Positions 5,976-60,108 of a stretch of DNA of 64,000 nt are shown here, piece by piece. The stretch comes from Escherichia phage 121Q. Both the position numbers and the translations under genes were made by a program. The stretch lies in the sequence record NC_025447.1, one strand, 5' to 3'. Within the stretch, counting starts at the first letter, position 1; the number at the start of each line of letters is the position of its first letter. The notes below the pieces were generated by a model. The model was not told the DNA's origin. It did no database searches and saw only the letters and a list, made by a program, of their open reading frames with translations.

Positions 5976-6074
5976 TAATATATCGGGACAAATCGTTCCG
6001 ATATTTTTTTTTGAGACAAACAAAACATTGGTGATACAATGTTTTATGACAAAGAGACATGATAAGGAATTCAA

Positions 6075-8039
6075 ATGGCTAAGAAAGAAAGTGCTGTTCT
6101 ACAGGAACATGATGTTCAACGACTTAATGATTATCAACATGCTCGTTTGCGTACAGAGATGTACCTTGGTTCTCGTTCAGTACATGAAAGTCAAGTACTG
6201 ATTTTTGGCGAATCAGGATATGAGGTTAAGAACGTAGAATGGGTTCCTGCAATTCTTACTGCTACACGTGAAATTATTGATAACAGCTTAGATGAATTTA
6301 AAAAAGCTGGAACTAAAGAACCTGTATTGAAAGTTGATTTCAATGAAGAAGAACTATCATTTGAGATTAGTGATAATGGTCGTGGTATTCCAATTGATTA
6401 TGTACCAGAGTATCAAAAAAACCTATGTACTATGGTAATGACCGAAACAAAAACTGGTCGAAACTTTGATGATTCAAAACGTGATGAAACTATTGGTCAG
6501 AATGGATTGGGTGGTTCAGTTGCGATGATTGTTAGTTCTAAGGCAGAATTGGAAATTCATCGCCAAGGTCGTCCATATAAAACACAAAGCAGTAATGATG
6601 GTTATGATGGGTTTTATAAGTTCAATCAGAAGTTTGAGGAAGGAACTATTATGTTCCCTGAACTTCATGTACATGAGCCTACCATTCGAAAGGTACAAAC
6701 AGATAAGACTGGAACAACAATTCGTTTTACATTGAGTAAAGAAGTTTTTCCAAATAGAAAATTACCTACTGAATTACTTTACAGTATTCTTAAAGAAATG
6801 GCAGCCGCCAACCTAACTTATAAAATATTTTTGAATGGTAAACGTATTGTTATTAAAGGTAACACCGAGAAAGCATTGTTCAATGCATCTAAATTGATGC
6901 AGTTGAATGTTAAAGATGATTCTTTCAATTTTAACAGTACTTTTTATATTGTTCCAAATGCAGTATCTGGAATGAATACAAACTTCCATATGCATGGATT
7001 GGTTAATAATGCTCCTGCATTTGATGGTGGTACACATCTTGACACCTTCAAGAAATTCTTTTCATTGGGTGTAGGAACTGCATTGGAGAAAGAATCGAAG
7101 AAACGTAGGATGAAACCTAATCGTTCTGATATTGAAGAAGGTTTGTTGATTTACAATGTCACAACTATGAAAGCACCTTCATTCAACTCACAGATTAAAT
7201 CTAAACTAACTAATGAAAACGTAATTCGACCAATTCAACAAGCAATGAATACAGAATGGTTTGATGAATTAGTTAAGAAAAACAAAGAATGGGTTGATGA
7301 AATATTTGAACGTTGTGCTGCACGTACCAATAAGAAAGATGCAGAAGAAGACCGTCGCCTCGCTAAGAAACTACTGAAAGGTAAAGTTGCAAAGCTACTT
7401 GATAGTACTGGTACAGACCGTTCACAGTGTATTTTATTGATTGCAGAAGGTGACTCTGCAATTTCCAACATGGCTAGTGCTCGTATACCAAGTATTCATG
7501 GTATTCTACCATTGCGTGGGAAAATTATGAACGTCAGTGGTACTGAGAAAACCAAAGAATTAATGGATTCAATGGCGTTGCATGATATAATGGCTAGTAT
7601 CAACTTAGTTCCAGGTGTTAAAGCAGAACGTTCTGAACTAAACTATGGTAAGCTTTACATCTGTGCTGATGAAGATGAAGATGGGAAGAACATTGGTGCT
7701 CTAGTGTGTAACTTCTTATTTAAATTCTGGCCTGAATTGTTTCAAGACCCAGAAAATCCATTTGTGTATGTATTCAAAACACCATTTATCATTCTTGAGA
7801 AAGGTAAAGAATCAAAATACTACTATGGTCATAATGTGCATGAATATAACCCAGATGATTGGAAAGGCTGGAAAGCAACCCGTGCTAAAGGATTGGGTAC
7901 GTTAGAAAAAGCAAACTTCCGTGATGCATTCACTAACAGTGTTGCAGTAGCGATCACCGATGATGGACGTCTTGGTGAAACTCTTGATTTGATTTTCAAC
8001 AAGAAACGTGCAGATGATCGTAAGAACTGGATGGAATAA
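6075..8039 (+). CDS. 39: DNA topoisomerase II large subunit, ATPase + Toprim (fused gp39/gp60-type)
   Basis: GHKL ATPase motif EIIDNSLDE, GLGG loop, Toprim motif LLIAEGDSA; single 654-aa ORF covers both ATPase and Toprim regions. Confidence 0.85.
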   Translation: MAKKESAVLQEHDVQRLNDYQHARLRTEMYLGSRSVHESQVLIFGESGYEVKNVEWVPAILTATREIIDNSLDEFKKAGTKEPVLKVDFNEEELSFEISDNGRGIPIDYVPEYQKNLCTMVMTETKTGRNFDDSKRDETIGQNGLGGSVAMIVSSKAELEIHRQGRPYKTQSSNDGYDGFYKFNQKFEEGTIMFPELHVHEPTIRKVQTDKTGTTIRFTLSKEVFPNRKLPTELLYSILKEMAAANLTYKIFLNGKRIVIKGNTEKALFNASKLMQLNVKDDSFNFNSTFYIVPNAVSGMNTNFHMHGLVNNAPAFDGGTHLDTFKKFFSLGVGTALEKESKKRRMKPNRSDIEEGLLIYNVTTMKAPSFNSQIKSKLTNENVIRPIQQAMNTEWFDELVKKNKEWVDEIFERCAARTNKKDAEEDRRLAKKLLKGKVAKLLDSTGTDRSQCILLIAEGDSAISNMASARIPSIHGILPLRGKIMNVSGTEKTKELMDSMALHDIMASINLVPGVKAERSELNYGKLYICADEDEDGKNIGALVCNFLFKFWPELFQDPENPFVYVFKTPFIILEKGKESKYYYGHNVHEYNPDDWKGWKATRAKGLGTLEKANFRDAFTNSVAVAITDDGRLGETLDLIFNKKRADDRKNWME

Positions 8040-40476: not shown

Positions 40477-40653
40477 GATGACACATGAAGAATGGTTAGA
40501 TGAACTAAAATTCAAACATAATCCTTTTGGTTTTGGTATACGCCAAGGTCATTATGATGTGTTAAAAGATAAACAACTTTTCAAATCATTTGTACTTGAT
40601 GCGGATAGCAACCACTGGTTCATCTATGAGCTTGCAATTAGAGACAAAAAATA
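40477..40653 (+). CDS. MTHEEW-family small protein
   Basis: 58 aa MTHEEWLDEL...HWFIYELAIRDKK; below track cutoff. Confidence 0.5.
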
Positions 40654-40659
40654 GTAAGA

Positions 40660-40995
<336 letters not shown>

Positions 40996-40996
40996 A

Positions 40997-41179
40997 ATGA
41001 CACACGAAGAATGGATGTACAAACAGCATAAAGAACATGACTGCTTTGGGAATGGTATTCGTCAGGTACATTATGATATTCTCAAAGATATAAATTTATT
41101 CATAAAATATGTTTTGGATGAAAATAAACATTGGTTTATATATGAGATTGCATATAGAAACTCAAATAAACAAAAATAA
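40997..41179 (+). CDS. MTHEEW-family small protein
   Basis: MTHEEWMYKQ...HWFIYEIAYRN; paralog of 40477..40653. Confidence 0.5.
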   Translation: MTHEEWMYKQHKEHDCFGNGIRQVHYDILKDINLFIKYVLDENKHWFIYEIAYRNSNKQK

Positions 41180-41193
41180 ATAAGGAATATATT

Positions 41194-41412
41194 ATGGAAA
41201 CAACGTTATTTGAAGTTATTCAAGCATTAAAAACTGGTGATGACATTCAAGTATTGCTACATGGTTATCGTTTAAAAGGCACTGTGGTTTTAGTTAATGA
41301 CACAACGTTAGTTATTGCCGAAACAAATCCATATGATAGTAATCAAGTTGCTAATATCCATATTGATATTAAAAGCATTATTGGTGTAGGCGTAAATAAA
41401 AATCAAGAATAA
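41194..41412 (+). CDS. hypothetical small protein
   Basis: 72-aa ORF. Confidence 0.45.
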   Translation: METTLFEVIQALKTGDDIQVLLHGYRLKGTVVLVNDTTLVIAETNPYDSNQVANIHIDIKSIIGVGVNKNQE

Positions 41413-41490
41413 CAAATGTTTTTGAAAAAAACCAGAAAATGAATGATTTTTTTGGACAACTCAAAAATATATGATATAATAATTAGTACA

Positions 41491-41580
<90 letters not shown>

Positions 41581-41584
41581 ATAT

Positions 41585-41680
<96 letters not shown>

Positions 41681-41689
41681 CTAAAAACC

Positions 41690-41854
41690 ATGACGCATGA
41701 AGAATGGATGAATGATATTAATTTTAGATATTCGGGTATCGGTAGTTGGCGAAAATATCATTGGGAAATTATTTCAGACCCAGCAGAATACGATAAACTT
41801 ATAAACCATGAAGTATATCCGTGGTTCTTTATTGAAATAATGGTACGAATATGA
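41690..41854 (+). CDS. MTHEEW-family small protein
   Basis: MTHEEWMNDINFRYSGIGSW...; 54 aa. Confidence 0.5.
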   Translation: MTHEEWMNDINFRYSGIGSWRKYHWEIISDPAEYDKLINHEVYPWFFIEIMVRI

Positions 41855-42011
41855 CGCATGAAGAATGGATGAATGACATTAATTTTAGATATTCGGGTAT
41901 CGGTAAATGGCTAAAGTATCATTGGGAATTCATTTCAGAGCCACATATGTATGATAAACTTATCAACGATCCAGCATATGAAATGTACTTAATTGAACTA
42001 CTGGTACGAAT

Positions 42012-42015
<4 letters not shown>
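41851..42015 (+). CDS. MTHEEW-family small protein
   Basis: MTHEEWMNDINFRYSGIGKW...; near-duplicate of 41690 copy; ATGA overlap. Confidence 0.5.
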
Positions 42016-42177
<162 letters not shown>

Positions 42178-42185
42178 AAAAAAAG

Positions 42186-42595
<410 letters not shown>

Positions 42596-42599
<4 letters not shown>

Positions 42600-42630
42600 C
42601 TAAATAATTCAGTACTGAGGATATTAATAT
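42596..42630 (+). promoter_or_regulatory. degenerate copy of promoter cassette (copy 2)
   Basis: TTGACTAAATAATTCAGTACTGAGGATATTAATAT; -35 and spacer conserved, -10 degraded. Confidence 0.35.
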
Positions 42631-42656
42631 GTTTAAAGATGAACGTCCAGATTTGT

Positions 42657-42694
<38 letters not shown>

Positions 42695-42699
42695 GAATT

Positions 42700-43050
42700 C
42701 CACAATCAGACGTATATGGTGTAAGCTACGTCGATGCAATCCAGAACAAGATCTCTGGTACTCTAGGAAGTGGTGAATGTTAACCTAGACGGGTTTGATA
42801 ATTGGACGATAGGCAATTATTACTTGACTAGCAGGTTGAAACTAGAGGTGACAGTCCTTCACCAAACTGGAAAACCGGATGGACTTTTATTTAAAAGGGT
42901 AAGGCGTGGAAATATGTTTACAGAAGTTGCTTTTAGTAGCCTGTACGCCCCACGACAAGGTAGCCGAAAGGTAAGTTAAAACGGGTGGTTATAAAGCTGA
43001 ATTAACAGCGGCGTTTAAAAGCGTCACCATCCATTTTTTTAATTAAAGTT
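42700..43050 (+). ncRNA. candidate structured non-coding RNA downstream of early promoter
   Basis: About 350 nt between a consensus promoter and the next RBS with no convincing ORF, locally GC-richer, several hairpins including GGTGACAGTCCTTCACC and a GAAA-loop stem. Confidence 0.3.
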
Positions 43051-43056
43051 GGCGAT

Positions 43057-43809
<753 letters not shown>

Positions 43810-43826
43810 TTCACATGATATAGGGA

Positions 43827-44088
<262 letters not shown>

Positions 44089-44096
44089 GAATCTTC

Positions 44097-44498
44097 ATGA
44101 AAAAGAATGACTTGATCAAAATGCTCCAAGAGATTGACGGCAATCCAGAGATTGTTATTTGGAATGGCTATGTCGATGATTATATGAACATCGAAAAAGG
44201 CTTGACTAAAATCACACTAGTCAAAGAAACTGAACAGTTCCTTCTGAACGCATTAGAGCATGAATGGTGCGAACGTAACAAGACATTCGACATTCCAGAA
44301 GACCAACGAACTAAGATTGCAGAACGTGCTAAAGAACTTCATAAGAAGCGTGAATACGATTTCCAGAACCCATATGTTACTGAAGAAGAATTCAATCGCT
44401 GGTACGGAAAAAGAAAGTTGACAAAGTATGTTCTTTCACCTAAACTACGTGGTAAGACTTCTCTTGGTGTATTCAATGCATCTGACTTAGATTACTAA
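44097..44498 (+). CDS. hypothetical protein (paralog pair with 45138..45353)
   Basis: N-terminus MKKNDLIKMLQEIDGNPEIVIW resembles MKAKDLISILQKNPEADILIH. Confidence 0.55.
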   Translation: MKKNDLIKMLQEIDGNPEIVIWNGYVDDYMNIEKGLTKITLVKETEQFLLNALEHEWCERNKTFDIPEDQRTKIAERAKELHKKREYDFQNPYVTEEEFNRWYGKRKLTKYVLSPKLRGKTSLGVFNASDLDY

Positions 44499-44508
44499 GG
44501 AAAACAAA

Positions 44509-44829
44509 ATGATGTGGTATTCAAATGTACCGTGTGAACCTAAATATATTCAGATTTCACATAATGCACTGAAAGCGTTCTGTGATAATTGCAGTACTAA
44601 AGATTATCACTTCGAAGACTTCAGAACGTTGATTTATGACCATCACTGTCAGCCAGCAACCAAAGATGGTATGTTTGTAATTGAACAATTCTTTCATGGT
44701 AAGGTATTGCAAATTGTTGCTGATTATCTGAAAGCAATGGGATATATTATCAAAGATGATTATCTTGATTTAGAAGGTGAATGCATTGTTGATGGTTATG
44801 ATGGTGTACTGATGAATTGGACATGGTGA
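44509..44829 (+). CDS. hypothetical protein
   Basis: 106-aa ORF. Confidence 0.5.
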   Translation: MMWYSNVPCEPKYIQISHNALKAFCDNCSTKDYHFEDFRTLIYDHHCQPATKDGMFVIEQFFHGKVLQIVADYLKAMGYIIKDDYLDLEGECIVDGYDGVLMNWTW

Positions 44830-44833
44830 TGAA

Positions 44834-45136
44834 ATGATTGCAACAATGATGATTGTACTTATCCCAATAGTACTAGTAATTCTAGTGACTTCATATGGTG
44901 CAACCACAACTATTGAAGATCTAAAAACACATTACGCTATCGTCTTTAGTGAAGCACATGAAGACTTTGGTACAGTACTGACCGATAAGACTTATATTGC
45001 AACTAAATGTAAGTACTACCGATTCTGGGAACGTTCTGACAAATACCACTACAGAGATGAGAAAGGCGTGAATCAGTACTTAGACGTACTGGATGCATTC
45101 TTGAAACCTTACTATACAGTAACCGAGGTAAAATAA
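44834..45136 (+). CDS. hypothetical membrane-anchored protein
   Basis: N-terminal TM MIATMMIVLIPIVLVILV. Confidence 0.5.
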   Translation: MIATMMIVLIPIVLVILVTSYGATTTIEDLKTHYAIVFSEAHEDFGTVLTDKTYIATKCKYYRFWERSDKYHYRDEKGVNQYLDVLDAFLKPYYTVTEVK

Positions 45137-45137
45137 C

Positions 45138-45353
45138 GTGAAAGCTAAAGATTTGATTTCAATTTTACAGAAAAACCCAGAAGCAGATATTCTTATTCAT
45201 GCTTCGCCTTATGATGACTATGCGATTGGTAGTTGCGAAACTGCTCATTCATATCAAGCAGGGGACACCGCTGTTGAAGAGTCTGGTGAAGATTTTTCGG
45301 AATCATTTGATGAAGATGGAAAACTCTTAGTACCAGTCATCATTCTCTCATAA
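45138..45353 (+). CDS. hypothetical protein (paralog pair with 44097..44498)
   Basis: GTG start in track; N-terminal similarity to 44097 ORF. Confidence 0.45.
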   Translation: MKAKDLISILQKNPEADILIHASPYDDYAIGSCETAHSYQAGDTAVEESGEDFSESFDEDGKLLVPVIILS

Positions 45354-45360
45354 AAGAACG

Positions 45361-45543
<183 letters not shown>

Positions 45544-45562
45544 AGAGGTACTTCGAGTATGC

Positions 45563-45629
<67 letters not shown>

Positions 45630-45632
45630 TAA

Positions 45633-45661
45633 TTGACATAACTTTGAATGGAGTGTATTAT
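45633..45661 (+). promoter_or_regulatory. sigma70-type promoter
   Basis: TTGACA, 17-nt spacer, TATTAT. Confidence 0.5.
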
Positions 45662-45704
45662 GTTCCAAGAAGAAAACTGGGGTTTTTAACATAACGGGGA
45701 ATGT

Positions 45705-45837
<133 letters not shown>

Positions 45838-45838
45838 G

Positions 45839-45889
<51 letters not shown>

Positions 45890-45895
45890 TAATTA

Positions 45896-45968
45896 GCCGA
45901 CTTAGCTCAGTAGGTAGAGCGTTCCTCTTGTAAGGGAAATGTCACCAGTTCAATTCCGGTAGTCGGCA
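45896..45968 (+). tRNA. tRNA-Thr (anticodon UGU)
   Basis: Perfect acceptor GCCGACT/AGTCGGC, D-arm GCTCAGTAGGTAGAGC, anticodon loop CTTGTAA, T-loop TTCAATT; CCA not encoded. Confidence 0.65.
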
Positions 45969-45980
45969 CAAAATAAAGGT

Positions 45981-51278: not shown

Positions 51279-51304
51279 TAAAATTAAAGCCACTACAATG
51301 TAGT
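51279..51304. terminator. bidirectional intrinsic terminator between convergent genes
   Basis: GCCACTACAATGTAGTGGC hairpin flanked by A-run upstream and T7 run downstream. Confidence 0.6.
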
Positions 51305-51315
51305 GGCTTTTTTTA

Positions 51316-52470
51316 TTATGCGTTGTAACCAACTATTACGACTGAGCAGTCAAGCGGTTCTACTACTTTTAAAATCACATTATCATCTTCATCCACTTGT
51401 ATTTCGCTATGAACTACATGATTGTCTGAAGAATATAATTGAACTTGTGGTAGTGCTTTACCATGTTCAGTTACTGGAACTGAGATAGAGTACATAGAGT
51501 CTTCACCGAGAACCCACTCACTTAAAGTATATTCTTTATGGAAAGGAGTAGTATGCAGTGTTTTTCCGATTATACTCAAAGAAACAGGTAAATTATCAGT
51601 TTGATACACAGTAATATTACCTTCTGCGTCTACAGAAAGATCTACACCAACTTGATATAAGTCACCACTGTATGCTTGAAGTGCTAAGTACTGTCCACGA
51701 TCATGAACATCAAATGGAACAACCGCAGAAAATACACCTTCCGAAACAGGTTCAAATTGGGATAGAAGAACTGATGTAACAAAATCAATATCCTCACCAC
51801 TTTCAAGAACATCAAATTCCACCACTTTAGTGTTATAATATGGAGAAGTGAGCGTAGCAGTACCTTTCCCTGATTGTGTGATAACATCAACTGGAATTGT
51901 AAATGCATCATTAACAAATTGGGTAGTAAAGTATTCTGTCCCGTCTGGTAATACGATTGTTATTACCATACCGTTAGTATCAATTTCTGAACCAGTGTTG
52001 AATAATTTACCACTAATTGAGTCATTACCAACAAATACTGGTGAAATGAGAATATTATCTATATCACGATCTATAATACCACATTCAGGTGTATACATAT
52101 GATACAAGGTTTGTGAACTACCTAAAATTGTTTTATGTAGCATGAATTTATATACAAATCCAGTATCAGTTTCTTGTGGCTCTTCGGAATATCCACGAAC
52201 AAAGAAACAATTTTTATTAATTTCACTTAATAGTTGGTCATTAGTTTTATTGTAATTTAATAGATAACCTTTATTATCTTTAGTTGTTATTTGTACTTTA
52301 CGATATATTATATTAGTTCTGGGATCAACTAAATCATATAATCTATGGCTTCTTTGGCGATAGATTCTAATATTTTTTAGTCTAGTTCCATCGTTGAGGA
52401 TTGCACCATCAACAACATAACCACATTCACCAAACTTATAGCGTCCAGCCGCAGCAATTGACCTTGACAT
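51316..52470 (-). CDS. hypothetical protein (only long minus-strand gene; beta-rich composition, possibly structural or surface protein)
   Basis: 384-aa ORF on minus strand with GGAGGG RBS 5-6 nt upstream of ATG; convergent with upstream + gene across a bidirectional terminator. Confidence 0.65.
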   Translation of the reverse strand: MSRSIAAAGRYKFGECGYVVDGAILNDGTRLKNIRIYRQRSHRLYDLVDPRTNIIYRKVQITTKDNKGYLLNYNKTNDQLLSEINKNCFFVRGYSEEPQETDTGFVYKFMLHKTILGSSQTLYHMYTPECGIIDRDIDNILISPVFVGNDSISGKLFNTGSEIDTNGMVITIVLPDGTEYFTTQFVNDAFTIPVDVITQSGKGTATLTSPYYNTKVVEFDVLESGEDIDFVTSVLLSQFEPVSEGVFSAVVPFDVHDRGQYLALQAYSGDLYQVGVDLSVDAEGNITVYQTDNLPVSLSIIGKTLHTTPFHKEYTLSEWVLGEDSMYSISVPVTEHGKALPQVQLYSSDNHVVHSEIQVDEDDNVILKVVEPLDCSVVIVGYNA

Positions 52471-55992: not shown

Positions 55993-56021
55993 TTGACATA
56001 ACAAATAATATGGAGTACAAT
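55993..56021 (+). promoter_or_regulatory. sigma70-type promoter
   Basis: TTGACA, 17-nt spacer, TACAAT. Confidence 0.5.
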
Positions 56022-56060: not shown

Positions 56061-56321
56061 ATGAAATCTATTCTCGTTGCAGTTAACCTGGTTGCTTCCC
56101 CATCTTTCAACTTCAAACAAGTTGTTGCTGATAATCTGAAGAAGATCTGTCCAAACGCTGAATTGACTTTCTGTGTATTTGATTCAGAAAAAGTAACTAA
56201 AGTTGATCTAAACTATCTTTTGAACGAAGTACAAAGCGTTTCTGGTGAAAGTAACTTAAAAGTTCTTCATGAGATTGCAGAAGATTATGATGACACTCTA
56301 GTAATTTCGGAGAAATTCTAA
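56061..56321 (+). CDS. hypothetical protein
   Basis: 86-aa ORF. Confidence 0.5.
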   Translation: MKSILVAVNLVASPSFNFKQVVADNLKKICPNAELTFCVFDSEKVTKVDLNYLLNEVQSVSGESNLKVLHEIAEDYDDTLVISEKF

Positions 56322-56326
56322 ATCAA

Positions 56327-56746
56327 ATGATTACATTCATTCAGTACTTAATCATTAAATTTTTTGGCTATTATACGATTGAGGGCAAAGCTACGCTTGC
56401 ACATAAAATCTTTGTAGCATTATGTACGGGTGATTATGACGTATTGAATAAGTACTGTAAATCTAAAGAATGTATTGATATAATGGCACTTCGTATCTAT
56501 GAGTGCCGATCCAATAGATACAATTTTTACCAGTACAGATTTGATAAAGAAGAATTTGATAGCATCAAAATGCTAAAGAATTTATGTAACAATAAAAAGA
56601 ATATGCATATATCAGAATTTGTTGCTTTGTATTTTTATTTAAAAAGTTCATTGTATATGAACACGATGCAAAGATTCGATACTAGAATTAATGTATTCAC
56701 CGATAAAGAATTTTATATATACGATAAATTCTTAGATAAGGTTTAA
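56327..56746 (+). CDS. hypothetical protein
   Basis: 139-aa ORF. Confidence 0.5.
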   Translation: MITFIQYLIIKFFGYYTIEGKATLAHKIFVALCTGDYDVLNKYCKSKECIDIMALRIYECRSNRYNFYQYRFDKEEFDSIKMLKNLCNNKKNMHISEFVALYFYLKSSLYMNTMQRFDTRINVFTDKEFYIYDKFLDKV

Positions 56747-56747
56747 T

Positions 56748-57245
56748 ATGACAACTGTTTATATTGATAAACGATTAAATTTATTGATTACCGATTCTAG
56801 AGTTACGTCAACTATACCACGAAACTTATTTGGTTTTTTCCCACTAAGACCAAAATATCAATATGGAGTTGTTAATCAAAAAACTTTATATGTACATGAC
56901 CGTTTATTCAGTGCTAGTGGGTCAGTAAGTGAAATTGATAAAGTACTGGATTGGTTAATTAATAAAGTACCAGTTATACCTGACAGAAAGTTAAGTTGCC
57001 ATTGTGTGCTTCTTTCTAAAGATTATGTTATTCATATGATTTTAACTAAAGGAAAGTTTATTAAAAAACTTGAATATCTACATGAAGACTACACTTTCTT
57101 TATGGGAAGTGGTGGAGAATACATGGTAGATGCTGCTATTCATGAAGAACATACAACTTTATATGATAAAGTGTTTAGTACTTTCATGGATGTGCATAAC
57201 CATGATTGCTTCACAGATGATAATATTAATGTATATCGATTTTGA
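56748..57245 (+). CDS. HslV/proteasome beta-like Ntn-hydrolase peptidase (putative)
   Basis: Starts MTTVYIDKR (Thr directly after Met, cf. HslV MTTIVSVRR); FFMGSGGEYMVDAA matches HslV IAIGSGGPYAQAA; Gly/Ser-rich FSASGSVSE at the position of HslV GFAGGTADAF; 165 aa. Confidence 0.5.
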   Translation: MTTVYIDKRLNLLITDSRVTSTIPRNLFGFFPLRPKYQYGVVNQKTLYVHDRLFSASGSVSEIDKVLDWLINKVPVIPDRKLSCHCVLLSKDYVIHMILTKGKFIKKLEYLHEDYTFFMGSGGEYMVDAAIHEEHTTLYDKVFSTFMDVHNHDCFTDDNINVYRF

Positions 57246-57266
57246 TTTCGTCATTAGGAGATGTAA

Positions 57267-58232
57267 GTGAAAAAGCTTGATTTAAATACAATTGCCGAAG
57301 AAGTTCTGGATGAATGTTTTTCTAATGAAGAAGTCAACACACTAGAAGCCTTAGATTTCGTTGAAGATAAAGATGAAAATGAAGGTAAAGTACAAAGCAG
57401 TTTCAAATATAATATTACACTTAAGCGACCACCAAATGTTTCCAATGAAGATCTAATTCGTGATATTCAAGCTGGTATCAATGTAAAGAAAAACACTGAA
57501 CTGTTAGTTCGTTACAATTATGGACTTATTATTGATGTAGCAAGTAAATGTACTTGTTATATCCCATTTGAAGATAAGATTTCATATGGTGTTGAGGGGT
57601 TCATGAGAGCACTAAAAACCTTTGATCTTAATAAGAATGTGAAGTTCATTACCTATGCTTCTTCTAGTATTTACATGACAGTTTATAACGAAAGTTCTGA
57701 CGCTAACTATATGGTACACTTCCCACGTTATATGAGTGTTCATAAGATCAAAGTAAAAAGATTCTGTCAGGAATATATGCGTAAACATGGTGTTCGCCCA
57801 ACTCCTGAAATAATCTCAGAGGGTACTGGGATTGAGATTCAGCATGTTAATAACTGTTTGTTATTTCAAAGCGAATACACTTCTCTGGATGCACCATTAG
57901 ACGGTGTTACCGATGGTACACTAGGTGACATTATTCATTCACCTGCTTCTGATTTTAACCTCAATGTTGATAGTATTCGTGCACCTTTACGTTATGCTAT
58001 CAATGAACTGACTAACGAATTGAGTACTAAAGAACGTGAGATTATCCAGCGTGTTCATGGTCTAGGTGAATATGAACCTGAAACGCTTCGTGAGATTGCT
58101 GATAATGGTTTTGTTGATGATAATGGAAAATATGTTAAATCCCGTTCATCAATACATCGAAAGTACAGTGAAGCTATGCAAAAGCTTAAGAAGCTAGTAC
58201 TTGCAAAAGGGTACGAATACGAAGATTTCTAA
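57267..58232 (+). CDS. sigma-70 family RNA polymerase sigma factor (regions 2 and 4)
   Basis: Region 2-like LVRYNYGLIIDVASK...GVEGFMRALKTFD...KFITYASSSIYMTV; region 4 HTH-like EREIIQRVHGL...ETLREIADNGF...SRSSIHRKYSEAMQKLKK; GTG start after AGGAG. Confidence 0.7.
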   Translation: MKKLDLNTIAEEVLDECFSNEEVNTLEALDFVEDKDENEGKVQSSFKYNITLKRPPNVSNEDLIRDIQAGINVKKNTELLVRYNYGLIIDVASKCTCYIPFEDKISYGVEGFMRALKTFDLNKNVKFITYASSSIYMTVYNESSDANYMVHFPRYMSVHKIKVKRFCQEYMRKHGVRPTPEIISEGTGIEIQHVNNCLLFQSEYTSLDAPLDGVTDGTLGDIIHSPASDFNLNVDSIRAPLRYAINELTNELSTKEREIIQRVHGLGEYEPETLREIADNGFVDDNGKYVKSRSSIHRKYSEAMQKLKKLVLAKGYEYEDF

Positions 58233-58240
58233 AGAAAAAA

Positions 58241-58265
58241 GGTTGGCTTATGCCAACCTTTTTTT
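58241..58265 (+). terminator. intrinsic terminator
   Basis: GGTTGGCTTATGCCAACC hairpin followed by T7 run. Confidence 0.65.
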
Positions 58266-58269
58266 ATGG

Positions 58270-58790
58270 GATGAAGTAAAAGTTTGTGATATAATTATCT
58301 TGTACAATTCTGTTGGCATGATATTCATGTACCTGATCCACTCGAAAACGTAGAGGGCAGTTGAGCAGTCCGACAGTGCGAACAGCAAAAGAAACCCGTT
58401 AGATGTGGGCATAGTTTGAACCCCTCACGGCAATGCGGCTGTATAAAGAACCACGTTAGGATAGCTGGTGGTTCCTTGATAGACATATAAGGATAACACC
58501 TTACGAATTATCTAAGGGAGAGTTATCAAATTTTGTACAGGAAAGTTGCGTCCAGAATTTGAGTACTCACATTAAGTATTTGATTGCATAGATACTTAAT
58601 GAAGATACACTATGTTTAAAAGTGTAGACCGTCATATGAAACTGAAGTAGAGAGAAACAGGATGACCCGCTTTCGCACTCGTTATGAGTAATCTTCAATG
58701 CAATAGCTCTGATACCATCAGCGTCAAATTTCCCTCCTTGTGGGGGGAAGAAAAATCCCTTCCTCAAATCCCGTCAATATTAAAAGTCCT
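58270..58790 (+). other. GC-richer non-coding region (candidate structured RNA or gene remnant)
   Basis: About 520 nt without a convincing ORF between terminator and next promoter; visibly higher GC than flanks. Confidence 0.3.
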
Positions 58791-58818
58791 TGACAGTTAT
58801 TAATCATTCGCGTAGAAT
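58790..58818 (+). promoter_or_regulatory. sigma70-type promoter
   Basis: TTGACA, 17-nt spacer, TAGAAT. Confidence 0.5.
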
Positions 58819-58882
58819 ACGTAGTATTAGAAGCGAACAGACATCTCGAAGAGATGGATGATTAACCATTAAGGAATATCCA

Positions 58883-59092
58883 ATGAATTCAGTAATCTTT
58901 TTAGTAGTCGCTTTCTCTGTTAATTCCGGTATACAAATAACCCCAATGAATTCCATGAATCAATGCATAGCAGTACGTGATAGTACATACGAACAAGTAA
59001 ACAAAGATATTTGGATTACAGTTAATAAAGAACAAATGTGGTGTTACAATAGTAATACTAACACAAAGCTTATTGTAGGACAAACTCAATGA
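58883..59092 (+). CDS. hypothetical small protein with N-terminal hydrophobic segment
   Basis: 69-aa ORF with AAGGAA RBS. Confidence 0.5.
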   Translation: MNSVIFLVVAFSVNSGIQITPMNSMNQCIAVRDSTYEQVNKDIWITVNKEQMWCYNSNTNTKLIVGQTQ

Positions 59093-59319: not shown

Positions 59320-60108
59320 ATGAGCACTATCGATGAACTGATTCAACGGAATTCAAAATATTACCAACCATCAGAAATTGTGGATAACATTACTAAATCT
59401 GAGTTTGGACCGAACACACGCAAACTCATTCATGTAATGTCACGTGATGGCTTTAAATGTGATTGTTGTGGTGAATCAAATGTAGTATTCACTTTACACA
59501 AGCACAGTACTAAAGAACGTTATAAATTCAGACCTTATGTACTTAAAGGGAAACGCCTTGTACGCATGACGTTAGACCATAATGTACTGGACTGTCTTCA
59601 GGGCGGTAATGATAAAGAGAACATGACTGCATTGTGTGAAGATTGTAACGCATTACGCCAGCATAAGTTTGCTGAGTACAGTGAGTTTAAACACTGGTAT
59701 CATAACGCGGATCGTTCAATCGAGCCTGACGTTAACTACTGCTTCATTGAGTACATTAAGAATGCCAAAGATACATACATTCTTAAATCAATGTCACCTA
59801 TTACCGTGTTTCCTGAGAACCTATTCACTACATTAAAGAATAGTTTTATTGTCGGTGATATTGATGCATTCAAGTATTTTGACAAAGGTGCAAAACATTT
59901 TGAAATTCAATGTCTTAGTACTGCACTATGTAAACTCATTAAAATTTACATAAAAGAGTATTTGGGTATTGACAATGTACGTGTACCAGAGTATACTTTT
60001 TCTATTGAATTCGATTGTGAATCAATTAAAGAGTTTGGAATTCTTTTCAATAAACAAATAGAACTTGCAATTCAAAACGAAATCAAGTACTATACTACTA
60101 ACATTTAA
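59320..60108 (+). CDS. HNH endonuclease (free-standing, homing-endonuclease-like)
   Basis: CDCCGESN ... MTLDHNVLDCLQGGNDKENMTALCEDCNALRQH: Cys pairs plus H-N-H catalytic pattern. Confidence 0.75.
   Translation: MSTIDELIQRNSKYYQPSEIVDNITKSEFGPNTRKLIHVMSRDGFKCDCCGESNVVFTLHKHSTKERYKFRPYVLKGKRLVRMTLDHNVLDCLQGGNDKENMTALCEDCNALRQHKFAEYSEFKHWYHNADRSIEPDVNYCFIEYIKNAKDTYILKSMSPITVFPENLFTTLKNSFIVGDIDAFKYFDKGAKHFEIQCLSTALCKLIKIYIKEYLGIDNVRVPEYTFSIEFDCESIKEFGILFNKQIELAIQNEIKYYTTNI

What the first reader, a model, noticed from the sequence alone, without database searches (positions are those of the whole stretch)
57267..58232. Sigma-70 family sigma factor with both region 2 and region 4 in a T4-like context
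The 321-aa ORF has a region 2-like core (LIIDVASK...GVEGFMRALKTFD...KFITYASS) and a C-terminal region 4 HTH-like segment (ETLREIADNGF...SRSSIHRKYSEAMQKLKK). T4 late sigma gp55 is short and lacks region 4, so a full two-domain sigma here suggests a different or additional transcription-programme switch. It lies directly downstream of an HslV-like peptidase gene.
Basis: partly seen in the sequence, partly recalled or inferred. Interest (0 to 1): 0.6.

Follow-up and report, generated by a model that had tools for sequence, protein, structure and literature searches.

The report
Jumbo-phage middle-stage sigma factor gene
This gene in a 350-kb E. coli jumbo phage encodes a real, complete but very divergent sigma factor, already annotated in sequenced relatives, which most likely redirects the host RNA polymerase to the phage's "middle" promoters in between the host sigma and a separate T4-type late sigma.

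Summary
ORF 57267-58232 (+) encodes a 321-aa sigma-70-family protein with regions 2, 3 and 4. It has an AGGAG RBS and a strong terminator.

The window comes from an Asteriusvirus jumbo phage, 99.6% identical to G17 and Sharanji. The gene is already annotated there as a sigma factor. The literature on relatives already notes an r2-r4 sigma alongside a separate gp55-like late sigma. As a finding it is therefore already known.

New analysis:
- The protein belongs to a sharply separated phage clade. It lacks the sigma-70 W433/W434 pair and the Q437, T440, H455 and E458 determinants, and it carries a 9-aa insertion in the region 4.2 helix-turn-helix.
- The gene lies in an early operon behind a host-type TTGACA-N17-TACAAT promoter.
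- The genome has a third promoter class, G[GA]GACA-N16-TATAAT with TGn. It gives 32 hits against 2.25 expected. It lies before replication genes, tRNAs and the gp55-like gene.
- The -35 of this class changes between genera together with the sigma's recognition helix.

Best model, confidence about 0.55: a cascade from host sigma-70 to this sigma to the gp55-like sigma.

In passing, an undescribed structured RNA of about 400 nt starts 70 nt downstream. It has 3-5 copies per genome and strong covariation, and it is driven by the same promoter class.

The parts
55993..56021 (+). Host-type early promoter TTGACA-N17-TACAAT. It is the nearest promoter upstream of the four-gene operon that ends with the sigma gene.
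   Evidence: It is one of 21 sigma-70-type promoters in the window, all on the + strand. Ten of them are perfect 12/12 matches, against 0.26 expected.
56061..56746 (+). Two small early ORFs of unknown function (86 aa and 139 aa), the first genes of the operon.
   Evidence: The second matches PHROG 37211, function unknown.
56748..57245 (+). HslV-like (Ntn-hydrolase-like) ORF of 165 aa, immediately upstream of the sigma gene.
   Evidence: PHROG 1040 'peptidase HslV family', E 4.9e-6. It begins MTT, and its GSGG motif aligns with HslV's GSGG. No Pfam or NCBIfam hit.
57256..57260 (+). Ribosome-binding site AGGAG, 6 nt before the GTG start.
   Evidence: Read directly from the sequence.
57267..58232 (+). 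Sigma-70-family sigma factor gene, 321 aa. Layout: acidic N-terminal motif at residues 1-30; region 1.2/2 at about 56-147; region 3 at about 154-226; region 4 at about 241-314.
57645..57689 (+). Region 2.3/2.4 codons, residues 127-141. F127, T129, Y130 and A131 are kept (sigma-70 F427, T429, Y430, A431). S133 and S134 replace W433 and W434. M137 replaces Q437 and Y140 replaces T440.
   Evidence: phmmer alignment to E. coli RpoD, clade alignments, and the roles of these residues from PMC2613000.
58083..58208 (+). Region 4.2 helix-turn-helix. Helix T273-D279; a clade-specific insertion of about 9 aa (NGFVDDNGK, a beta-hairpin in the model); recognition helix S292-K314. In that helix R293 corresponds to R584, S294 to E585, H297 to R588 and R298 to Q589.
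58234..58266 (+). Intrinsic terminator ending the sigma operon (GGTTGGC-TTAT-GCCAACC followed by T7).
   Evidence: -20.3 kcal/mol.
58271..58295 (+). Middle-class-like promoter GGGATG-N16-TATAAT with GTGA before the -10. It drives the RNA element.
   Evidence: The paralogous copies carry GAGACA or GGGACA promoters at the same position.
58302..58745 (+). One copy of a multi-copy structured non-coding RNA family of about 400 nt. The HMM core covers 58329-58713.
6013..6040 (+). Middle-class promoter GAGACAAACAAAACATTGGTGATACAAT, upstream of the topoisomerase II large-subunit gene (6075-8039).
40641..40669 (+). Middle-class promoter GAGACA...TATAAT, 13 nt upstream of tRNA-Gly (40682-40754).
41453..41480 (+). 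Middle-class promoter TGGACA...TGATATAAT, 11 nt upstream of tRNA-Ser (41491-41580).

Best explanation
The ORF encodes a phage sigma factor. It is made early from a host-sigma-70 promoter and is not a detected virion protein. I propose that it binds the host core RNA polymerase and directs it to a phage-specific 'middle' promoter class, G[GA]GACA(A)-N16-TATAAT, usually preceded by TGn.

Those promoters sit in front of replication genes, tRNAs, a multi-copy structured RNA and the gene for the gp55-like late sigma. The phage would then run a three-step cascade:
1. Host sigma-70 reads TTGACA/TATAAT early promoters.
2. This sigma reads the middle promoters.
3. The gp55-like sigma reads (T)ATAAATA late promoters.

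This sigma would play the role that MotA/AsiA 'sigma appropriation' plays in T4.

Shown here:
- The domain architecture of the protein.
- Its placement in an early operon.
- The existence, enrichment and strand bias of the three promoter classes.
- The middle-class promoter in front of the late-sigma gene.
- Co-variation between the -35 element and the recognition helix across genera.

Inferred:
- Binding to host core polymerase.
- That it is this protein's region 4 that reads the G[GA]GACA element.
- The timing of expression.
For: Protein:
- It is a sigma-70-family protein with sigma-2, sigma-3 and sigma-4.
- It is conserved as a distinct clade of about 18 representatives at 50% identity, E <= 1e-29, followed by a gap to cellular sigmas at about 1e-20.
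- The -11A and -7T pocket residues are invariant in the clade: F427, T429, Y430 and N383 equivalents.

Expression:
- The gene is last in an operon behind TTGACA-N17-TACAAT, in a region with 21 host-type promoters, all co-oriented.
- It is absent from the phAPEC6 virion protein list.

Promoter class:
- [GT][AG]GAC[AG]-N16/17-TA[TC]AAT gives 32 hits in PBECO4, 30 of them on the coding strand. Shuffles give a mean of 2.25 and a maximum of 6.
- The hits lie before SSB, primase, exonuclease, topoisomerase II, a DNA-polymerase operon and a Lon-like protease. One lies 58 nt upstream of the gp55-like gene.
- TATAAATA or ATAAATA motifs lie before structural genes.

Cross-genus evidence:
- CBB's published 'Promoter 1' list has the same architecture with TG[AG]AAC[GA].
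- Asteriusvirus and a metagenomic group with recognition helix S-R-[ST]-S-[IL]-H-R use GGGACA or GAGACA.
- CBB, GAP32, Yen9-04 and Serratia BF types with helix S-K-A-T-L-S-R-R use G[GA]AAC[GA].
- RaK2 with helix V-R-G-T-L-H-Y-K uses TTGAA[CT]A.
- The changed base is -33 and the changed residues are the E585 and R588 equivalents, which read -33 in sigma-70. R584, which reads -31 C, and the C at -31 are both kept in Asteriusvirus.

Other:
- No AsiA-like protein was detected in PBECO4.
Against: There is no experimental or transcriptomic evidence for any phage of this clade.

The middle-class -10 is a perfect sigma-70 TATAAT with an extended TGn. Host sigma-70 could therefore use these promoters without any -35 contact. 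Meanwhile the phage sigma lacks the sigma-70 residues that read -12 (Q437, T440), TGn (H455, E458) and the W433/W434 pair, so how it would read TGnTATAAT is unexplained.

The covariation rests on only three or four independent lineages and is confounded with phylogeny. RaK2 contributes just two promoters, with inconsistent spacing (17 and 18 nt).

Sigma-70 core-binding residues Q406 and E407 are not conserved (S and Y), so binding to core polymerase is assumed, not shown.

Some middle-class hits lie inside the early region.

The AsiA search used a sequence recalled from memory and a low-sensitivity method, and MotA was not searched.
Confidence: 0.55

Rival explanations
1. The protein is a working sigma factor with a different regulon. 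One option is a general replacement for host sigma-70 on all phage TATAAT-type promoters once the host sigma is displaced or inactivated. Another is the highly repeated AAAAAGTACTTGCA-N17-TATAATGTTTTACAT module found at PBECO4 133-152 kb.
For: All three non-late promoter classes share a TATAAT -10, and the sigma keeps the -11A and -7T pocket residues. The repeated module has a non-consensus -35 (CTTGCA or TTGCAA) and about 21 nearly identical copies, which suggests a dedicated reader.
Against: The repeated module has A-rich UP-like DNA and looks like a strong host promoter in front of tiny early-type ORFs. The sigma is not in the virion list, so it cannot act first. The genus-specific -35 changes that track the recognition helix were seen in the G[GA]GACA / G[GA]AACG class, including at orthologous positions.
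Confidence: 0.2
2. The middle-class promoters are used by host sigma-70 through their extended -10, with the conserved -35-region motif bound by some other phage activator, analogous to MotA. On this view the sigma-like protein is a competitor or decoy that occupies core polymerase or a partner protein rather than initiating transcription itself.
For: TGnTATAAT promoters are known not to need a -35 contact (PMC2613000). The phage protein has lost W433/W434, which matter for open-complex formation, and also Q437, T440, H455 and E458. T4 provides a precedent for an activator-read middle element.
Against: The motif sits exactly where sigma region 4 binds, 16-17 nt from the -10, and keeps the GAC core of TTGACA. 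It co-varies with the sigma recognition helix. All three sigma domains are conserved across a clade at 30-45% identity, which suggests selection for full sigma function. No AsiA-like hit was found.
Confidence: 0.15
3. It is a gp55 orthologue with an unrelated C-terminal extension, or a decaying copy of a captured host rpoD or rpoS gene.
For: It is annotated 'RpoD' or 'RpoS' in several records. There is a weak N-terminal resemblance to the gp55-like protein, KR..N.DLIR.IQ.
Against: A separate gp55-like gene exists, and the two proteins show no significant similarity. The ORF is intact in about 90 phage records, with conserved start, domains and motifs. It scores far below every RpoD, RpoS, FliA or SigB equivalog cut-off, for example 88 bits against 354. 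It forms its own clade.
Confidence: 0.02

Closest known systems
Sigma factor CBB_513 of Pectobacterium phage CBB, and its orthologues in GAP32, RaK2, PBECO4 (gp356), phAPEC6 (gp066c) and Sharanji (WNN14470.1): the 'RpoD-like' sigma of group 2 jumbo phages
   Same: These are direct orthologues, 99% identical in Asteriusvirus records and 35-44% in CBB and RaK2. They share the r2+r3+r4 architecture and the early-region location. Each genome also has a separate gp55-like sigma.
   Different: Nothing differs in kind. The published descriptions stop at annotation. They do not report the loss of W433/W434, the HTH insertion, or the assignment of the 'divergent RpoD-like' promoters to this sigma.
E. 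coli sigma-70 (RpoD) and sigma-S, group 1 and 2 sigma factors
   Same: Same order of regions 1.2, 2, 3 and 4. The F427, T429, Y430 and N383 equivalents are kept, as is the R584 equivalent. The candidate promoters have a TATAAT -10 and a xxGACA -35 at sigma-70 spacing.
   Different: No region 1.1 and no non-conserved region. W433/W434 become S/S, Q437 becomes M, T440 becomes Y, H455 becomes Y, E458 becomes V, E585 becomes S, R588 becomes H and Q589 becomes R. There is a 9-aa insertion in the 4.2 HTH. Scores are far below the equivalog cut-offs.
T4 middle transcription (MotA/AsiA sigma appropriation) and T4 gp55 late sigma
   Same: A distant T4 relative with T4-type replication genes, T4-like late promoters (TATAAATA) and a gp55-like gene next to gp46/47-like genes. 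A distinct middle promoter class with a sigma-70-like -10 and an altered upstream element precedes the replication genes.
   Different: T4 remodels host sigma-70 with AsiA and MotA and encodes no region-4-bearing sigma. This phage encodes its own full sigma, and no AsiA-like protein was detected. The middle element sits at -35, not at the -30 MotA-box position.
Phage-encoded sigma cascades in Bacillus phage SPO1 (gp28, then gp33/34). From my own knowledge; not tested here.
   Same: The idea of successive phage sigma factors replacing the host sigma on host core polymerase to time middle and late genes.
   Different: Unrelated phage lineage and Gram-positive host. Here the late factor is a T4 gp55-type minimal sigma.

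Membership tests
Sigma-70 family (Pfam Sigma70_r2/r3/r4; NCBIfam TIGR02937) | Region 2 (core binding, -10 recognition and melting) | tested here: met
   Pfam r2 covers residues 80-140 at E 7e-5, with 22.9 bits just under the 24 cut-off. TIGR02937 scores 44.7 against a cut-off of 42.9. phmmer against solved sigma factors reaches 5e-17, with the alignment running through region 2.
Sigma-70 family (Pfam Sigma70_r2/r3/r4; NCBIfam TIGR02937) | Region 4 helix-turn-helix (-35 recognition, flap binding) | tested here: met
   Pfam r4 covers residues 251-279 at E 3e-5, with 23.9 bits against 24.1. The match is cut short by a 9-aa insertion. The alignment to sigma-70 continues through the recognition helix. 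The AlphaFold model shows helix, hairpin, helix. Foldseek aligns the full length to SigA and sigma-S.
Sigma-70 family (Pfam Sigma70_r2/r3/r4; NCBIfam TIGR02937) | Binds core RNA polymerase and confers promoter-specific initiation | not testable with these tools
   Needs biochemistry. Sigma-70 core-binding residues Q406 and E407 are S and Y here.
Group 1/2 sigma (RpoD/RpoS), as the gene is named in several records | Score above the RpoD or RpoS equivalog cut-offs, with the conserved 2.3/2.4 residues W433, W434, Q437 and T440 | tested here: not met
   RpoD_Cterm scores 88 bits against 354. rpoS_proteo scores 70.5 against 378.7. The WW pair is absent in all 26 clade members.
Group 3 sigma (FliA/WhiG, SigB/F/G) | Score above the subfamily cut-offs | tested here: not met
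   FliA_WhiG scores 55.6 against 189.6. SigBFG scores 56.6 against 234. The architecture (1.2-2-3-4, about 320 aa) resembles group 3.
ECF (group 4) sigma | Only regions 2 and 4, with no region 3 | tested here: not met
   Region 3 is the best Pfam match, E 2e-9 and above its cut-off.
T4 gp55 late sigma family (PHROG 234) | Sequence similarity to gp55-type minimal sigma | tested here: not met
   The only PHROG hit is 351. BLASTP against the genome's own gp55-like protein gives E 0.054. That gp55-like protein does hit PHROG 234, at 8e-18.
Rak2-like jumbo-phage sigma clade (PHROG 351 in part; group 2 jumbo phage 'RpoD-like' sigma) | Full-length similarity, plus the clade motifs: N-terminal KKLDLN..EVLDECF, no WW pair, G[FY]xDxxGK insertion in the HTH, and the R298 equivalent | tested here: met
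   99% identity to the PBECO4, G17 and phAPEC6 proteins. The clade is separated by a score gap. The motifs are present.

The most novel reading that the evidence does not exclude
This sigma is the middle-stage switch of a three-tier cascade: host sigma-70, then this sigma, then the gp55-like sigma. It replaces T4's MotA/AsiA mechanism in Rak2-like jumbo phages.

Its insertion-bearing region 4 reads a G[GA]GACA -35 element. The natural covariation across genera (residues equivalent to E585 and R588 against base -33) amounts to a ready-made -35 recognition code.

Its regulon includes a previously undescribed structured RNA family of about 400 nt. That family has 3-5 copies per genome, with one copy syntenic with the sigma gene and one with the late-sigma gene.
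Probability: 0.4. Interest if true: 0.65.

Novelty: already known. Interest (0 to 1): 0.35.

Why it matters
Jumbo phages of this clade are being developed for therapy against E. coli, Klebsiella, Salmonella and plant pathogens. More than 80% of their genes have no known function, and their transcription programme has never been tested.

This analysis yields a concrete, checkable map:
- Which promoters are early, middle or late.
- Which factor reads each class.
- That the late-sigma gene itself sits behind a middle promoter.

Such a map would organise annotation of about 550 genes. It also gives an orthogonal sigma/promoter pair for E. coli, with natural specificity variants. Finally, it shows that a T4 relative solved 'middle transcription' with its own sigma instead of remodelling the host's.

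The sigma gene as such is not news. The RNA family next to it may be.

Tried and rejected
- CBB's published -35 (TGAAACG-N-TATAAT) has no match in the window. The Asteriusvirus version differs by one or two bases and was only found by asking which hexamers sit 16-17 nt upstream of intergenic TATAAT motifs.
- Plain k-mer over-representation across the whole window was uninformative.
- The word-indexed protein search returned only 14 close relatives. The exhaustive search was needed to see the clade and the score gap.
- Rfam, at gathering thresholds over the whole window and at E <= 1 on 58200-58900, found only tRNAs and terminator-like fragments. The downstream RNA is therefore not a described family.
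- I considered a hammerhead-like core (CAGAUGAG...GAAC) in that RNA. I rejected it because the positions that would be essential vary or differ from the consensus.
- I considered a group I intron or a homing-endonuclease association, because an HNH gene lies 600 nt downstream. The other copies have no consistent HNH neighbour.
- tblastn with T4 AsiA (sequence from memory) found nothing. This is a weak negative, and MotA was not tested.
- Pairwise BLAST of the HslV-like ORF against E. coli HslV (sequence from memory) gave only E 0.035.
- PA5oct's paper gave no usable link. Its ncRNAs were not compared, because that genome did not appear in the similarity search.
Full report
WHAT IS THERE

ORF 57267..58232 on the + strand encodes 321 aa. 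It starts at a GTG, 6 nt after AGGAG (57256-57260). It ends 2 nt before a hairpin plus T-run terminator at 58234-58266, -20.3 kcal/mol.

Profile searches identify a sigma-70-family protein with three recognisable regions:
- Pfam Sigma70_r3, residues 162-226, E 2e-9, above its cut-off.
- Pfam Sigma70_r2, residues 80-140, E 7e-5.
- Pfam Sigma70_r4, residues 251-279, E 3e-5. The r2 and r4 matches each fall a fraction of a bit below the curated cut-off.
- The NCBIfam sigma-70 superfamily model TIGR02937 is passed, 44.7 bits against 42.9. RpoD_Cterm aligns across residues 79-283 at E 6e-25.
- PHROG 351 'RNA polymerase sigma factor' matches at E 2e-60.
- Solved RpoD, SigA and RpoS chains match by sequence at up to 5e-17.

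An AlphaFold model built on a 26-sequence clade alignment has pLDDT 73. It shows helical sigma-2, sigma-3 and sigma-4 domains. Foldseek against the PDB returns only sigma factors at probability 1.00.

WHERE IT COMES FROM, AND WHAT IS ALREADY KNOWN

The window is 99.6% identical over the 4.5 kb around the gene to Escherichia phages G17 and Sharanji. It is 97-99% identical to phAPEC6, PBECO4 and others. These are Asteriusvirus jumbo myoviruses of 350-370 kb.

The gene is already annotated there as 'RNA polymerase sigma factor' or 'RpoD subfamily sigma-70 subunit'. Orthologues at 31-44% identity occur in RaK2, K64-1, GAP32, CBB, Serratia phage BF, Yersinia fHe-Yen9 and Xanthomonas XaC1.

Four papers already cover this:
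- The CBB paper describes the orthologue as having regions 2, 3 and 4. It notes a separate gp55-like sigma and lists three promoter types.
- Iyer et al. 2021 state that group 2 jumbo phages carry a minimal sigma and a fuller RpoD-like one.
- The Sharanji paper calls the RpoD-like sigma a hallmark of that group.
- The phAPEC6 paper mentions it.

I found no experimental work on the protein. As a finding, the gene is already known.

NOT A gp55 ORTHOLOGUE, BUT AN ADDITIONAL SIGMA

PBECO4 encodes gp530, 'sigma factor for late transcription'. It matches PHROG 234 'late sigma transcription factor' at 8e-18 and lies beside Mre11/Rad50-like genes. It shows no significant similarity to the ORF studied here (E 0.054).

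The gp55-like protein is 73-79% identical across these genera. The RpoD-like sigma is only 31-44% identical, so the latter evolves much faster.

HOW THE PROTEIN DIFFERS FROM CELLULAR SIGMAS

An exhaustive search shows a sharply separated clade. About 18 representatives at 50% identity score E <= 1e-29. Scores then jump to about 1e-20 for cellular sigmas.

I aligned the protein to E. coli sigma-70. Numbering was checked against the alignment. The sigma-70 sequence beyond residue 578 comes from my memory.

Residues kept:
- N84 = N383
- F127 = F427
- T129 = T429
- Y130 = Y430
- A131 = A431
- R293 = R584

Residues replaced:
- W433 and W434, by S133 and S134. The pair is never WW in any of the 26 members.
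- Q437, by M.
- T440, by Y.
- H455, by Y.
- E458, by V.
- E585, by S.
- R588, by H.
- Q589, by R. This arginine is nearly invariant in the clade.

Other clade features:
- A conserved insertion of about 9 residues (G[FY]xDxxGK) sits in the turn of the region 4.2 helix-turn-helix. It is modelled as a small beta-hairpin.
- An acidic N-terminal motif (KKLDLN..EVLDECF) and a C-terminal KGxExEDF tail are clade-specific and unexplained.

All RpoD, RpoS, FliA and SigB equivalog cut-offs are missed by a wide margin. The 'RpoD' and 'RpoS' names in some records are therefore not justified. The presence of region 3 excludes an ECF sigma.

According to the review PMC2613000, sigma-70 residues act as follows:
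- R584 reads -31.
- E585 and R588 affect -33.
- Q437 and T440 read -12.
- H455 and E458 read TGn.
- Y425, F427, Y430, W433 and W434 act in melting.

GENOMIC SETTING

The window carries 21 TTGAC[AT]-N16-18-TA[TCG]AAT promoters, all on the + strand. Ten of them are perfect consensus matches, against 0.26 expected.

The nearest one upstream of the sigma gene is 55993-56021 (TTGACA-N17-TACAAT). It is followed by four abutting ORFs: 86 aa, 139 aa, a 165-aa HslV-like protein, and the sigma. The terminator comes next.

The sigma is not among the virion proteins listed for phAPEC6. It is therefore most simply an early gene read by the host holoenzyme.

PROMOTER CLASSES IN THE WHOLE GENOME

I fetched all of PBECO4 and analysed its intergenic DNA. 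Four classes emerge:
1. Consensus sigma-70 promoters. There are 44 relaxed matches, 43 of them on the coding strand, against 3.6 in shuffles.
2. A repeated module, AAAAAGTACTTGCA-N17-GTATAATGTTTTACAT plus a G-rich hairpin. About 21 copies lie at 133-152 kb before tiny ORFs. These are probably immediate-early.
3. G[GA]GACA(A)-N16-TATAAT or TACAAT, usually with (G)TG[AC] before the -10. There are 32 matches, 30 on the coding strand, against 2.25 in shuffles (maximum 6).
4. (T)ATAAATA late motifs just upstream of head, baseplate and tail genes.

Class 3 precedes SSB, primase, an exonuclease, topoisomerase II, the DNA-polymerase operon and a Lon-like protease. In the window it precedes tRNA-Gly and tRNA-Ser. 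It also precedes the gp55-like gene: GTGGGACAAACTGCTTTTTGGTGCTATAAT lies 58 nt before its start.

CBB's published 'Promoter 1' set has the same architecture, with TG[AG]AAC[GA]. It includes the promoter of CBB's gp55-like gene.

CO-VARIATION

I used loci that pair the sigma gene and the gp55-like gene on the same contigs. I added the promoters of the RNA family described below. The -35 element tracks the sigma recognition helix:
- Asteriusvirus (helix KSRSSIHRKY) uses GGGACA or GAGACA.
- A metagenomic group (helix SSRTSLHRCY) also uses GGGACA or GAGACA.
- The CBB, GAP32, Yen9-04 and BF group (helix TSKATLSRRY) uses G[GA]AAC[GA].
- RaK2 (helix TVRGTLHYKF) uses TTGAA[CT]A.

Between the first two states, the base that changes is -33 (G to A). 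The residues that change are the E585 and R588 equivalents (S...H to A...S). These are the residues genetically tied to -33 in sigma-70.

This supports direct reading by the phage sigma's region 4. It rests on only three or four lineages.

MODEL AND CAVEATS

The best-supported reading is a cascade: host sigma-70 (early genes, including this one), then this sigma (middle genes: replication, tRNAs, RNA elements and the late-sigma gene), then the gp55-like sigma (late genes). My confidence is about 0.55.

The main weaknesses are:
- The middle -10 is a perfect extended sigma-70 -10, which the host sigma could use unaided.
- The phage sigma lacks the known readers of -12 and TGn, and also lacks the W-dyad.
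- Binding to core polymerase is untested.
- No transcriptome exists for this clade.

Rivals are a different regulon for a functional sigma (0.2), an activator-plus-host-sigma mechanism with this protein acting as a competitor (0.15), and a gp55 orthologue or decaying rpoD copy (refuted).

NOTICED NEXT DOOR: A STRUCTURED RNA FAMILY

The 650-nt ORF-free stretch after the terminator begins with a class-3-like promoter at 58271-58295. It contains an element with four paralogues in PBECO4. All four lie in ORF-free gaps in the gene orientation. Three of them sit directly behind class-3 promoters that I had already listed.

Distribution:
- A signature search found 19 copies in IMG/VR, all on Rak2-like contigs.
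- blastn found 248 places in 60 phage records, 3-5 per genome, almost all unannotated.
- A profile search finds a copy directly after RaK2's sigma gene as well. It finds another copy about 4.6 kb downstream of the gp55-like gene in every genus.

Structure:
- RNAalifold on 19 sequences predicts 59 pairs in 11 helices. Of these, 32 show compensatory double changes.
- In the pair-count test, 94.9% of cells pair, against 81.5% in shuffles and 36-45% when the partners are slid.
- There are 142 double-change cells against 42 expected.
- No shuffle out of 500 reaches the observed value on any of the five measures.
- Rfam has no match.

Its function is unknown.

VERDICT

The gene is an already-annotated, literature-noted member of a known jumbo-phage sigma clade. 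Interest in the finding as stated is modest.

The added value here is a testable promoter assignment with natural specificity variants, a list of unusual residues, and a probably undescribed RNA family under the same promoters.

Noticed in passing
window 58271-58745 (+). Paralogues at PBECO4 94224-93655, 305470-305011 and 38575-38105. Other copies at L003 4006-4364 (RaK2) and in L047-L065.: A structured non-coding RNA family of about 400 nt with no Rfam match. It has 3-5 copies per genome, in 60 Rak2-like jumbo-phage records (248 places). Each copy sits behind a middle-class promoter. There are 59 predicted pairs in 11 helices, 32 with compensatory changes. In the pair-count test 94.9% of cells pair, against 81.5% in shuffles and 36-45% when slid. 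One copy is syntenic with the sigma gene (Asteriusvirus and RaK2) and one with the gp55-like gene (all genera). Function unknown.
   Followed up: yes
whole window (30 sites, e.g. 42201, 60629, 60967) and the whole PBECO4 genome: The palindrome CAGTACTG is hugely over-represented. It occurs 30 times in the window against 0.6 expected, and 191 times in PBECO4 against 3.4. AGTACT occurs 891 times against 118, while other 6-bp palindromes of similar composition occur 49-225 times. It occurs in ORFs and in promoter spacers (e.g. TTGACAGAAGATATCAGTACTGTATAAT). It could be a site for a phage DNA-binding or DNA-modifying protein.
   Followed up: partly
PBECO4 133,000-152,000 (- strand), outside the window; loci L007 and L008: About 21 near-identical copies of a promoter module: AAAAAGTACTTGCA-N17-(G)TATAATGTTTTACAT, followed by a conserved G-rich hairpin (e.g. 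GAGAGGGGGAAACGGTTCTCCCTC). Each precedes a tiny ORF. They look like immediate-early promoters with an UP element and a conserved 5' leader structure.
   Followed up: partly
window 56748-57245 (+): The ORF just upstream of the sigma gene begins MTT, like HslV's N-terminal threonine nucleophile. Its GSGG motif aligns with HslV's GSGG. Otherwise it is barely similar to HslV (PHROG 1040 at E 4.9e-6, no Pfam hit). PBECO4 also has other HslV-family and ATP-dependent protease genes (gp096, gp097, gp457, gp539).
   Followed up: partly
window 40641-40754 and 41453-41580 (+); tRNA cluster at 40682-45969: Six tRNA genes lie in the window: Gly-TCC, Ser-TGA, a 92-nt 'Ser-ACT', Met, Asn and Thr. tRNA-Gly and tRNA-Ser each have a middle-class promoter 11-13 nt upstream. 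Three identical TTGACTAAATAGTTCAGTACTG(A)TATAAT promoters lie among the others. ARAGORN's tRNA-Ser with anticodon ACT is called Arg or 'undetermined' in papers on related phages.
   Followed up: no
loci L022-L039 against L012-L020: The gp55-like late sigma is 73-79% identical between Asteriusvirus and the CBB, GAP32 and RaK2 genera. The RpoD-like sigma is only 31-44% identical. The two sigmas of the same genomes therefore evolve at very different rates.
   Followed up: partly
window 59320-60108 (+): A 262-aa HNH endonuclease ORF (PHROG 35175 at E 2e-188; weak Pfam HNH match) lies about 600 nt downstream of the RNA element. fEgEco12's paper lists this HNH gene and the sigma among the genes absent from the relative Ecwhy_1, although tblastn finds a sigma homologue in Ecwhy_1.
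   Followed up: no
PBECO4 intergenic regions; also L002 ~6015, L013 ~4880 and L014 ~3518: A repeated terminator-like hairpin with a UUCG tetraloop, GGTTGACTTCGGTCAGCC(TTTT), occurs at least 8 times. It contains a TTGACT that pairs with a downstream TATAAT, making terminator-promoter combination units that are conserved across genera.
   Followed up: no
window 51286-52470: This is the only sizeable minus-strand gene in this part of the window, at 51316-52470 (384 aa). It is annotated as a virion structural protein in PBECO4 (gp368). It abuts a perfect bidirectional terminator at 51286-51310 and is embedded among early + strand genes.
   Followed up: no
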